Below, one piece after another: positions 4,328-4,702 of a DNA stretch of 5,370 bases. The position numbers and the translations under genes are program-made. The first letter of the stretch is position 1; the number at the start of each line of letters is the position of its first letter. The notes beneath the pieces were generated by a model. The model did not search any database and was not told where the DNA came from. It saw nothing but the letters and a program-made list of their open reading frames with translations. Source of the stretch: a virus (Duplodnaviria; Heunggongvirae; Uroviricota; Caudoviricetes); the IMG/VR virus record IMGVR_UViG_2534682078_000015; one strand, 5' to 3'.

Positions 4328-4702
4328 ATGGCAAAAGATCTGAAAACACTGGCGCTGGCCAGACTGTCGGGGTTCCGTCATAAAACGGTGAAGGTGCCGG
4401 AATGGGGAAATGTCAGCGTGGTGCTGCGGGAGCCTTCGGCAGAGGCCTGGTATCTGTGGCAGGAAGTGCTCAATGGTGATGGAGAGGATGACGATACCCT
4501 GTCGGTGGTGGCGAAAACCCGCCGTAACCTGGAAGCGGATGTGACGCTGTTCTGCGATGTCCTGTGTGATACGGATCTGCAGCGGGTGTTCGCTCCGGAC
4601 GACCGTGAGCAGGTGCTGGCCGTCTATGGTCCGGTACATGCCCGGTTGCTGCGTCAGGCACTGGAACTGATCGCTGATGCAGAGTCGGCCAGAAAAAAGT
4701 AG
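4328..4702 (+). CDS. tail assembly chaperone (lambda gpG-like)
   Basis: The 124-aa product contains the KTVKVPEWG motif typical of G-like chaperones. It lies between the major tail and tape measure genes and ends ...SARKK followed by TAG directly after a slippery heptamer. Confidence 0.85.
   Translation: MAKDLKTLALARLSGFRHKTVKVPEWGNVSVVLREPSAEAWYLWQEVLNGDGEDDDTLSVVAKTRRNLEADVTLFCDVLCDTDLQRVFAPDDREQVLAVYGPVHARLLRQALELIADAESARKK
4693..4699 (+). other. -1 programmed ribosomal frameshift slippery heptamer A AAA AAG
   Basis: Heptamer of X XXY YYZ form, in the zero frame of the G gene as aga AAA AAG tag. After a -1 slip the reading continues aaa aaa gta gcc cgc ccg gaa att cgc ttt ctg atg... with no stop until 5005-5007. 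Confidence 0.75.

What the first reader, a model, noticed from the sequence alone, without database searches (positions are those of the whole stretch)
4693..4702. Frameshift site for the G-T fusion lies on the last two sense codons of G
The heptamer A AAA AAG is in the zero frame immediately before the TAG stop, and the -1 frame is then open through the T domain to 5007. This is the conserved tail assembly chaperone frameshift of long-tailed phages (lambda uses G GGA AAG). The adjacent stop may help ribosome pausing, but no obvious strong downstream stimulatory structure is evident to me by eye.
Basis: partly seen in the sequence, partly recalled or inferred. Interest (0 to 1): 0.45.

Follow-up and report, generated by a model that had tools for sequence, protein, structure and literature searches.

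The report
Known tail-chaperone G/GT frameshift site
This is the ordinary, already documented -1 ribosomal frameshift site by which an HK97-type E. coli prophage makes a little of a longer tail-assembly chaperone (GT) alongside the short one (G); the identical sequence has been measured at about 7% frameshifting.

Summary
A AAA AAG (4693-4699) occupies the last two sense codons of a 124-aa ORF (4328-4702), followed directly by TAG. The -1 frame is open only from 4678 and runs to 5007, so a shift would give a 226-aa fusion. G is Pfam Phage_TAC_1 and the -1 extension is Phage_tail_T. The pair lies between the major tail and tape-measure genes.

The locus is about 99% identical to Stx-phage BP-4795 and E. 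coli O157/O111 prophages, and it belongs to the HK97 gp13/gp14 family, whose record carries the -1 frameshift join. The exact 75 nt at 4673-4747 was tested in a reporter by Antonov et al. 2013, giving 7% ± 0.79 frameshifting. Sharma et al. 2014 list the same site (ECs1801) as a true case.

Across 39 distinct junctions, A AAG is invariant and the linker evolves as -1-frame coding sequence. No conserved RNA structure or Shine-Dalgarno stimulator was found. The stop is adjacent in 27 of 39 junctions and has changed state at least 5 times, so it is common but dispensable. Its role as a "shifty stop" is untested.

Public records still annotate G and T as two separate genes. This copy of the prophage looks degraded elsewhere.

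The parts
4328..4702 (+). G: tail assembly chaperone ORF, 124 aa, the zero-frame product
   Evidence: The ORF and its translation are. Pfam PF06222 Phage_TAC_1 matches 1-124 of 124 with E 2.7e-61. RefSeq annotates 'phage tail assembly chaperone' in near-identical prophages. SD potential upstream of ATG 4328 is -5.8 kcal/mol.
4675..4677 (+). TGA in the -1 frame, the upstream limit of the T reading frame
   Evidence: Translation of the -1 frame. It restricts the shift to 4678-4699.
4693..4699 (+). Slippery heptamer A AAA AAG on the last two sense codons of G
   Evidence: The A AAG part is invariant in 35 of 35 distinct aligned relatives. The identical cassette gave 7% frameshifting in Antonov et al. 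2013.
4700..4702 (+). TAG stop of G, immediately 3' of the heptamer (candidate 'shifty stop')
   Evidence: A stop is adjacent in 27 of 39 distinct family junctions, and adjacency changed at least 5 times on the family tree.
4699..5007 (+). -1 frame part of GT: 102 codons from GTA (Val) to the TAA at 5005-5007, linker plus T domain
   Evidence: Pfam PF06223 Phage_tail_T matches residues 152-221 of the 226-aa fusion, E 2.6e-18.
4699..4725 (+). Linker V-A-R-P-E-I-R-F-L, translated only after the shift
   Evidence: There are no indels across the family. The pattern K-V-x-x-P-x-x-x-F-L-M is conserved. Variation is highest at the third codon position of the -1 frame: information content 1.15, 1.02 and 0.45 for positions 1, 2 and 3.
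4726..4728 (+). ATG that RefSeq and GenBank use as the start of a separate 'T' gene; most likely an internal Met of GT
   Evidence: Annotation. SD potential upstream is -3.5 kcal/mol, at background level (-3.19 ± 2.45). In relatives it ranges from -6.5 to +2.4, and is weaker than -2 in most.
4705..4730 (+). Weak local hairpin 5 nt after the heptamer; not supported as a stimulator
   Evidence: -7.3 kcal/mol, z -1.8. Only 54% of cells pair across the family and there is no excess covariation. It is not more stable than synonymous resamples in any of 31 sequences.
4734..4753 (+). Strong hairpin 34 nt after the heptamer, conserved in only part of the family; role unknown
   Evidence: -14.3 kcal/mol, z -3.96. 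It is more stable than synonymous resamples in 15 of 31 family members, against 0 to 1 of 31 for control regions. No compensatory changes.
3606..4322 (+). Major tail protein gene upstream (context)
   Evidence: Pfam Phage_TTP_11 and Phage_tail_2 (both just below their curated cut-offs) plus a C-terminal Ig domain. RefSeq annotates 'major tail subunit'.
5059..5370 (+). Start of the tape measure protein gene downstream (context; runs off the window)
   Evidence: RefSeq annotates 'phage tail tape measure protein' at the homologous position. SD potential is -6.6 kcal/mol.

Best explanation
This is the programmed -1 ribosomal frameshift site of an HK97-type tail assembly chaperone gene pair.

Most ribosomes translate G (124 aa) and terminate at TAG 4700-4702. 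A minority, about 7% in a published reporter, slip back one nucleotide on A AAA AAG. The single E. coli tRNA-Lys pairs better with AAA than with AAG, so it re-pairs from AAG to AAA (established knowledge). The ribosome then reads GUA (Val) and continues in the -1 frame to 5007. The product is a 226-aa GT fusion whose C-terminal part is a lambda-T-like domain.

By analogy with lambda (inferred, not tested here), many G copies and a few GT copies coat the tape measure protein. The T domain recruits the major tail protein. The frameshift rate sets the G:GT ratio.

Shown: the site's anatomy, its conservation, the coding nature of the linker, and from the literature the frameshift efficiency of this exact sequence.

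Not resolved: whether the slip is the usual tandem P/A-site slip during translocation, or a P-site slip of tRNA-Lys while the slowly decoded TAG sits in the A site ('shifty stop'). Both routes give the same protein.
For: - Anatomy: the heptamer is in phase and is the only slippery motif in the 22-nt overlap.
- Domains and gene order.
- HK97 gp13/gp14 is 60% identical over 99% of the GT query, and its record has a CDS join noted 'translated due to a -1 frameshift'.
- In 42 loci (39 distinct junctions) from many Enterobacterales genera, A AAG is invariant and the distance to the conserved FLM motif has no indels.
- In L011, L012 and L028 the -1 frame opens only 7 nt before the G stop, so the shift must occur on the motif itself.
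- The linker shows -1-frame codon periodicity, like the T body.
- There is no SD before ATG 4726.
- Window 4673-4747 is identical to the Phage_TAC cassette that gave 7% ± 0.79 frameshift product in a GST-MBP reporter in E. coli (PMC3711429 Table S2).
- The same cassette is present in phage BP-4795 and in Sakai ECs_1801.
- Sharma et al. 2014 list cluster A_AAA_AAG_25 (ECs1801, tail assembly chaperone) as a true case (PMC4066793 supplement).
- A_AAA_AAG is among the most shift-prone heptamers in E. coli (PMC5009743).
- In-frame G-T fusions arise naturally by 1-nt changes in the A-run and have the predicted junction (L043; P0023).
Against: - No GT protein from this phage has been observed directly. 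The 7% figure comes from a cassette in a heterologous fusion reporter.
- That assay cannot separate ribosomal from transcriptional slippage.
- Sharma et al. report that heptamers without stimulators reach only about 10 times a 0.055% background in their lacZ reporter. So 7% implies help from local context or a difference between assays. I could not identify a conserved stimulator.
- This copy of the prophage has frame-breaking indels in two other structural genes, so the site may no longer be in use here.
Confidence: 0.93

Rival explanations
1. T is an independent 93-aa protein, as RefSeq and GenBank annotate it. Ribosomes would initiate at ATG 4726, either de novo or by reinitiation after terminating at TAG 4700, and the heptamer would be incidental.
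For: - Public records annotate a separate CDS from this ATG.
- The Met of the FLM motif is conserved in all relatives.
- In Serratia-type relatives the G stop overlaps this ATG (C TGA TG), an arrangement typical of translational coupling.
- The ATG lies only 23 nt after the G stop.
Against: - SD potential before ATG 4726 is at background level, and it is weak in most relatives.
- The 26 nt between AAG and the ATG never carry an indel, show -1-frame codon periodicity and encode a conserved K-V-x-x-P motif.
- The -1 frame opens exactly at the heptamer in several relatives.
- A AAG, using the rarer Lys codon, is invariant.
- The published GST-detected frameshift product for this cassette is an N-terminal fusion, not an internal start.
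- The HK97 record annotates the join.
Confidence: 0.03
2. The frame change happens in the mRNA rather than on the ribosome. RNA polymerase would stutter on the A-run (4693-4698) and add one A, so a fraction of transcripts would encode G-T in one frame.
For: - Relatives carry runs of 7 to 9 A.
- The published reporter measures protein only.
- In the same paper, efficiency rose with A-run length for another gene family.
- Genomic 1-nt changes in this run do occur (L041 and L043).
Against: - The window's run is only 6 A.
- Family members with runs of 3 or 4 A (GCA AAG, GAA AAG including HK97, and G GGA AAG) keep the same architecture.
- The G GGA AAG cassette gave 6%, similar to 7% for this one.
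- What is invariant is A AAG in a fixed codon phase, ending in G rather than extending the run. That is what tRNA-Lys re-pairing requires and polymerase slippage does not.
Confidence: 0.04

Closest known systems
Phage HK97 gp13/gp14 (G/GT analogues), Pfam Phage_TAC_1 + Phage_tail_T
   Same: - Same protein family: 60% identity over 99% of the GT query.
- Same gene position.
- -1 frame T extension, with the same A AAG position and the same linker length to FLM.
- The record annotates the -1 frameshift join.
   Different: - HK97's motif is G GAA AAG, not a perfect X XXY YYZ.
- Its zero frame continues for 5 more codons (TCT CAA CCC CCG GCG) before TAA.
- The window has the perfect A AAA AAG with the stop directly adjacent.
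Phage lambda G / GT (Levin, Hendrix & Casjens 1993; Xu, Hendrix & Duda 2004, 2013, 2014)
   Same: - Same gene order (V, G, T, H) and a -1 shift near the end of G.
- The T domain is in the same Pfam family, PF06223.
- No SD or RNA structure stimulator was found here; from memory, none was needed in lambda (Levin et al. 1993, not checked here).
- The fusion is made at a low percentage: a 30:1 ratio in lambda.
   Different: - Lambda uses G GGA AAG, 5 codons before the stop.
- Lambda G is Pfam TAC_2, not TAC_1.
- BLASTP finds no pairwise similarity for G or T.
- The reporter value here (7%) is about twice lambda's.
GeneTack 'Phage_TAC' cluster (Antonov et al. 2013) and cluster A_AAA_AAG_25 / ECs1801 (Sharma et al. 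2014)
   Same: This is the same site. The tested cassette equals window 4673-4747, and the ECs_1801 junction is identical.
   Different: Nothing at the site itself. Those papers did not discuss the adjacent stop or the variation of the motif across the family.
E. coli dnaX -1 frameshift (A AAA AAG)
   Same: Identical heptamer and the same tRNA-Lys re-pairing logic.
   Different: - dnaX has an upstream SD-like element and a stem-loop 6 nt downstream, and reaches about 50% or more.
- Here neither element is present or conserved and efficiency is about 7%.
- The dnaX shift shortens the product. This one lengthens it.
'Shifty stop' frameshifting (Weiss et al. 1987; prfB, antizyme and pheL CCC_UGA)
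   Same: A stop codon lies immediately 3' of a codon whose tRNA can re-pair in another frame (definition in PMC3082878).
   Different: - The classic cases are +1 shifts.
- No experiment shows that the stop contributes here.
- 12 of 39 relatives lack the adjacent stop.

Membership tests
Tail assembly chaperone G/GT programmed -1 frameshift (Xu, Hendrix & Duda 2004 class) | Two ORFs located between the major tail protein gene and the tape measure gene | tested here: met
   Major tail gene 3606-4322, G 4328-4702, T frame to 5007, tape measure from 5059.
Tail assembly chaperone G/GT programmed -1 frameshift (Xu, Hendrix & Duda 2004 class) | The second ORF overlaps the first in the -1 frame and lacks its own ribosome binding site | tested here: met
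   The -1 frame is open from 4678, a 22-nt overlap. SD potential before ATG 4726 is -3.5 kcal/mol, at background level.
Tail assembly chaperone G/GT programmed -1 frameshift (Xu, Hendrix & Duda 2004 class) | A slippery X XXY YYZ heptamer in the zero-frame phase inside the overlap | tested here: met
   A AAA AAG at 4693-4699.
Tail assembly chaperone G/GT programmed -1 frameshift (Xu, Hendrix & Duda 2004 class) | The shift site and the two-frame architecture are conserved among homologues | tested here: met
   A AAG is invariant in 35 of 35 distinct aligned junctions. T is in the -1 frame in 39 of 42 loci, and the 3 exceptions carry indels.
Tail assembly chaperone G/GT programmed -1 frameshift (Xu, Hendrix & Duda 2004 class) | Both the short product and a minor frameshifted fusion are actually made | not testable with these tools
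   The literature gives 7% ± 0.79 frameshift product in an E. coli GST-MBP reporter for the identical 75-nt cassette (PMC3711429). Native G and GT proteins of this phage have not been examined.
Tail assembly chaperone G/GT programmed -1 frameshift (Xu, Hendrix & Duda 2004 class) | G binds the tape measure protein, the T domain binds the major tail protein, and both are absent from virions | not testable with these tools
   Known for lambda only (PMC5009743). Inferred here by homology of the T domain.
HK97 gp13/gp14 family (Pfam PF06222 Phage_TAC_1 + PF06223 Phage_tail_T) | Sequence membership of both parts | tested here: met
   PF06222 scores 205 bits against a cut-off of 25. PF06223 scores 66.6 bits against a cut-off of 25.9. 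tblastn to HK97 gives 60% identity over 99% of the query.
Lambda G family (Pfam PF06894 Phage_TAC_2) | G matches the lambda G profile or sequence | tested here: not met
   The window's G hits only PF06222 and lambda G hits only PF06894. BLASTP E = 6.6.
dnaX/IS911-type stimulated -1 frameshift signal | An SD-like element 6 to 17 nt upstream of the heptamer | tested here: not met
   -3.0 kcal/mol, at background level, and not conserved in relatives. Sharma et al. also found no conserved SD for this cluster.
dnaX/IS911-type stimulated -1 frameshift signal | A conserved stem-loop or pseudoknot 5 to 9 nt downstream | tested here: not met
   RNAalifold consensus energy is -0.11 kcal/mol. The candidate hairpin pairs in 54% of cells, with covariation no better than shuffles, and is not above synonymous resamples. 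Sharma et al. give ΔΔG 0.020 ± 0.023.
'Shifty stop' recoding site | A stop codon immediately 3' of a re-pairable P-site codon | tested here: met
   AAG then TAG. 27 of 39 family junctions have an adjacent TAA or TAG.
'Shifty stop' recoding site | The stop codon raises frameshift efficiency | not testable with these tools
   Indirect evidence only. Adjacency was gained or lost at least 5 times. A relative's cassette with one codon between motif and stop gave 6%, against 7% here.

The most novel reading that the evidence does not exclude
The pausing device that sets the G:GT ratio may be interchangeable within this family.
- Most members, including this one, have a stop directly after the slip codon ('shifty stop').
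- Serratia-type members have a UGA stop exactly 9 codons downstream. That is the spacing at which a terminating ribosome best stimulates -1 slippage in the ribosome behind it (Smith et al. 2019).
- About half the family has a hairpin 34 nt downstream, roughly one ribosome length ahead of the slip site.

If so, the G:GT ratio would depend on release-factor activity and ribosome load rather than being a fixed property of the heptamer.
Probability: 0.15. Interest if true: 0.4.

Novelty: already known. Interest (0 to 1): 0.12.

Why it matters
It matters little as a discovery. The G/GT frameshift is a textbook feature of long-tailed phages, and this exact sequence has been catalogued and measured.

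The practical value is for annotation. RefSeq, PGAP and most GenBank records of these very common E. coli O157/O111/O26 prophages and Stx phages still list G and 'T' as two separate genes, with T starting at an internal Met, instead of a ribosomal-slippage join. The sequence is found in 1246 of 5426 complete E. coli genomes.

The family comparison also gives a natural series for asking what, beyond the heptamer, sets frameshift efficiency. The series has the same A AAG combined with different P-site codons and different stop distances.

Tried and rejected
- Rfam scan of the whole window at E ≤ 1 found no family, so no known frameshift element is present.
- dnaX-like upstream SD: at background level and not conserved.
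- Conserved downstream structure: the RNAalifold consensus is essentially unstructured. The window's own two hairpins show no covariation above the shuffled or slid controls.
- Hairpin 1 (5-nt spacer) is rejected as a stimulator. Hairpin 2 is real in half the family but too distant, and is left unexplained.
- Direct BLASTP to lambda G and T found no similarity. The link to lambda T rests on the shared Pfam profile only.
- The motif count in the window is not significant on its own. The argument rests on phase and position.
- The Xu, Hendrix & Duda 2004 paper is not in the held library, so I could not confirm from the text which phages they tested experimentally.
- Antonov et al.'s internal-initiation control (their Figure S5) is not in the held supplement text, so it could not be used against the independent-T rival.

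Full report
**Observation**

[quoted passage not shown] A AAA AAG therefore occupies 4693-4699 in the X XXY YYZ phase, and TAG follows at 4700-4702. The -1 frame has a TGA at 4675-4677 and then runs open to the TAA at 5005-5007. Any change into that frame must happen within the 22 nt 4678-4699, and the heptamer is the only slippery motif there.

The motif count alone is not remarkable: 2 matches on both strands against 0.53 expected, with 15 of 200 shuffles reaching 2. An in-phase copy inside the overlap is unlikely by chance. There are six possible positions, and from the rate I infer about 3e-4.

**What the genes are**

- The 124-aa product matches Pfam Phage_TAC_1 from end to end (E 2.7e-61).
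- The hypothetical fusion additionally matches Phage_tail_T in its -1 part (E 2.6e-18).
- Upstream lie head-tail connector, head closure, HK97-gp10-like and tail terminator genes, and a major tail protein gene (3606-4322). Downstream, from 5059, is the tape measure gene.
- Lambda T is in the same Pfam family. Lambda G is in a different one (Phage_TAC_2), and BLASTP shows no pairwise similarity to either lambda protein.

**Where it comes from**

The G-T region is 99.0-99.7% identical to phage BP-4795, to many Stx1- and Stx2-converting phages, and to prophages in 1246 of 5426 complete E. coli genomes. These records annotate two separate genes, a chaperone and a 'tail assembly protein T' or 'tail protein' starting at ATG 4726, with no slippage join.

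A protein-level search shows that phage HK97 belongs to the same family, with 60% identity over 99% of the GT query. The HK97 record lists gp13 together with a joined CDS 'translated due to a -1 frameshift'. Burkholderia phage Bcep176 is annotated in the same way.

**Comparative test**

I fetched 41 loci encoding G homologues (46-64% identical) from Enterobacter, Kosakonia, Morganella, Providencia, Proteus, Pectobacterium, Brenneria, Serratia, Klebsiella, Erwinia, Pantoea and others. I aligned them on the conserved T-frame motif FLM.LALR.G.

- T is in the -1 frame relative to the end of G in all but three loci, and those three carry indels.
- A AAG sits at a fixed distance from FLM and is invariant in 35 of 35 distinct aligned junctions. 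The next base is T in at least 90% of them.
- The rest of the motif varies among the 39 distinct junctions: A AAA AAG in 24, GCA AAG in 7 and GAA AAG in 8. The GAA AAG group includes HK97's type. Phage mEp390 has lambda's own G GGA AAG.
- In L011, L012 and L028 the -1 frame opens only 7 nt before the G stop, which pins the shift to the motif itself.
- The 26 nt between AAG and the Met of FLM never carry an indel and encode K-V-x-x-P-x-x-x-F-L-M.
- Per-column information content in this linker is 1.15, 1.02 and 0.45 for -1-frame codon positions 1, 2 and 3. This is the same periodicity as the T body (1.31, 1.61, 0.79) and the G body in its own frame (1.29, 1.47, 0.51). The linker is therefore translated in the -1 frame.

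**The adjacent stop**

A TAA or TAG follows AAG directly in 27 of 39 distinct junctions. Elsewhere the zero frame continues for 1, 4, 5 (HK97 type) or 8 codons. On a neighbour-joining tree of the GT proteins, adjacency changes state at least 5 times. The stop is therefore a frequent but dispensable companion of the site.

The literature defines a 'shifty stop' as a slowly decoded stop in the A site paired with a P-site tRNA that can re-pair in another frame (PMC3082878). AAG-TAG fits that description, but nothing here shows that it contributes.

**Stimulators**

- SD potential in the 16 nt upstream of the heptamer is -3.0 kcal/mol, against a coding background of -3.19 ± 2.45. It is not conserved in relatives.
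- The RNAalifold consensus for the 70 nt after the site has an energy of -0.11 kcal/mol.
- The window's own hairpins, imposed on the alignment, pair in 63.4% of cells against 64.3% in shuffles. The covariation score is 0.085 against 0.094 in shuffles.
- Hairpin 1 (4705-4730, 5-nt spacer, -7.3 kcal/mol) is not more stable than synonymous-codon resamples in any of 31 sequences.
- Hairpin 2 (4734-4753, -14.3 kcal/mol, z -3.96) is more stable than the protein sequence requires in 15 of 31 family members, against 0 to 1 of 31 for controls. However, it starts 34 nt after the heptamer, is missing from whole clades and shows no compensatory changes. I leave it unexplained.
- Rfam has no match anywhere in the window.

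**Prior knowledge of this exact site**

- Antonov et al. 2013 (PMC3711429) describe a cluster of 41 HK97-like 'phage tail assembly chaperone' genes with a predicted frameshift. They tested two cassettes in a GST-MBP reporter in E. coli and found 7% and 6%.
[quoted passage not shown] This is window 4673-4747 without a mismatch. It is also present in BP-4795, E. coli E2863 and Sakai prophage Sp9.
- The 6% cassette has G GGA AAG CCG TAA, the mEp390 type, with one codon between the motif and the stop.
- Sharma et al. 2014 (PMC4066793) list cluster A_AAA_AAG_25 (53 sequences, ECs1801, tail assembly chaperone) as a 'true' case. They report no conserved SD and a downstream hairpin no more stable than background, ΔΔG 0.020 ± 0.023. 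ECs_1801 has a junction identical to the window.

**Mechanism**

Established knowledge comes from PMC5009743:
- E. coli has one tRNA-Lys, which pairs more strongly with AAA than with AAG.
- A_AAG is the shiftiest tetramer, and A_AAA_AAG is among the shiftiest heptamers.
- Lambda's G:GT ratio of about 30:1 is needed for tail assembly.

The most likely course here is as follows. tRNA-Lys on AAG, together with tRNA-Lys on AAA, re-pairs one base back. GUA (Val) is read next, and translation continues to 5007.

Two routes remain open: tandem slippage during translocation, or P-site slippage while TAG waits for RF1. Relatives with GCA AAG or GAA AAG cannot re-pair their P-site tRNA well. This argues that re-pairing of the AAG-decoding tRNA is the essential event across the family (inference).

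Sharma et al. found that heptamers without stimulators reach only about 10 times a 0.055% background in their reporter. The 7% seen with this cassette therefore suggests either help from local context or a difference between assays. I cannot decide between these.

**Rivals**

*Independent initiation of T at ATG 4726* is what the databases imply. The evidence against it is:
- There is no SD.
- The linker behaves as coding sequence.
- The -1 frame opens at the motif in several relatives.
- A AAG is invariant.
- The published product was detected as an N-terminal fusion.

*Transcriptional slippage* is conceivable for relatives with 8 or 9 A. It is unlikely for the window's 6 A, and it cannot explain family members with 3 or 4 A or the fixed codon phase.

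**Verdict**

The feature is already known both in kind and in this exact sequence. What remains open is minor: whether the adjacent stop and the distal hairpin tune the efficiency.

Noticed in passing
window 590-700: Relative to the intact 859-aa 'portal' gene of E. coli E2863 (L001) and Sakai Sp9, the window lacks 2 nt near 599 and 1 nt in a G-run near 671. This puts a stop at 616-618, and the ORF restarts at ATG 688. The cause is either a degraded prophage copy or sequence errors.
   Followed up: partly
window 3196-3540: The tail terminator (gp17-like) gene has an extra C at 3261 and a missing G at 3459 relative to both L001 and Sakai. The middle of the protein is out of frame, with a premature stop at 3436-3438. 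This is a second broken structural gene in this copy, while G/GT is intact.
   Followed up: partly
window 913-1604: A 162-nt tandem repeat of 4.3 copies (92% matches) encodes 54-aa units in the C-terminal extension of the portal-like gene. L001 and Sakai carry about one more copy. No Pfam family explains this region.
   Followed up: partly
window 5017-5042: A terminator-like hairpin (-12.5 kcal/mol, z -3.6) followed by T8 lies between the T stop (5007) and the tape measure ATG (5059). The HK97 record annotates a putative terminator just before its tape measure gene. The T-run is one base longer in Sakai.
   Followed up: partly
window 4734-4753: A strong hairpin sits inside the T coding sequence, 34 nt after the slip site. 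It is built from the LALRLGR codons with the unusual choices CTC and GGG. It is more stable than synonymous resamples in 15 of 31 family members, but is absent from some clades and shows no covariation. A ribosome stalled at it would sit about one ribosome length ahead of the slip site.
   Followed up: partly
L032 1860-1895, L034 and L039 (Serratia loci): Here A AAA AAG is followed by 8 sense codons and then TGA, which overlaps the FLM Met (C TGA TG). This gives a 9-codon A-site to A-site spacing. Smith et al. 2019 (PMC6815119) found that spacing optimal for a terminating ribosome to stimulate -1 slippage in the ribosome behind it.
   Followed up: no
L043 about 1805-1830; L041 about 1850-1870; protein P0023: The A-run at the slip site is a hotspot for indels. 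L043 (a Symbiopectobacterium symbiont) has A9, which fuses G and T in one frame. L041 has one A fewer, which puts T in the +1 frame. A read-assembled protein (P0023) is an in-frame G-T fusion with the junction ...EVKK|VALPGMRFLM.
   Followed up: partly
window 3527-3590: Two terminator-like hairpins with T-runs (3527-3543 and 3569-3583) lie just upstream of the major tail gene ATG at 3606. HK97 annotates a putative terminator at the equivalent position. The only other AAAAAAG in the window (minus strand, 3547-3553) is part of one of these T-runs.
   Followed up: no
window 4050-4322: The major tail protein carries a C-terminal immunoglobulin-like domain (Pfam Ig_2, I-set and Ig_3; residues about 148-232) encoded in frame.
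   Followed up: no
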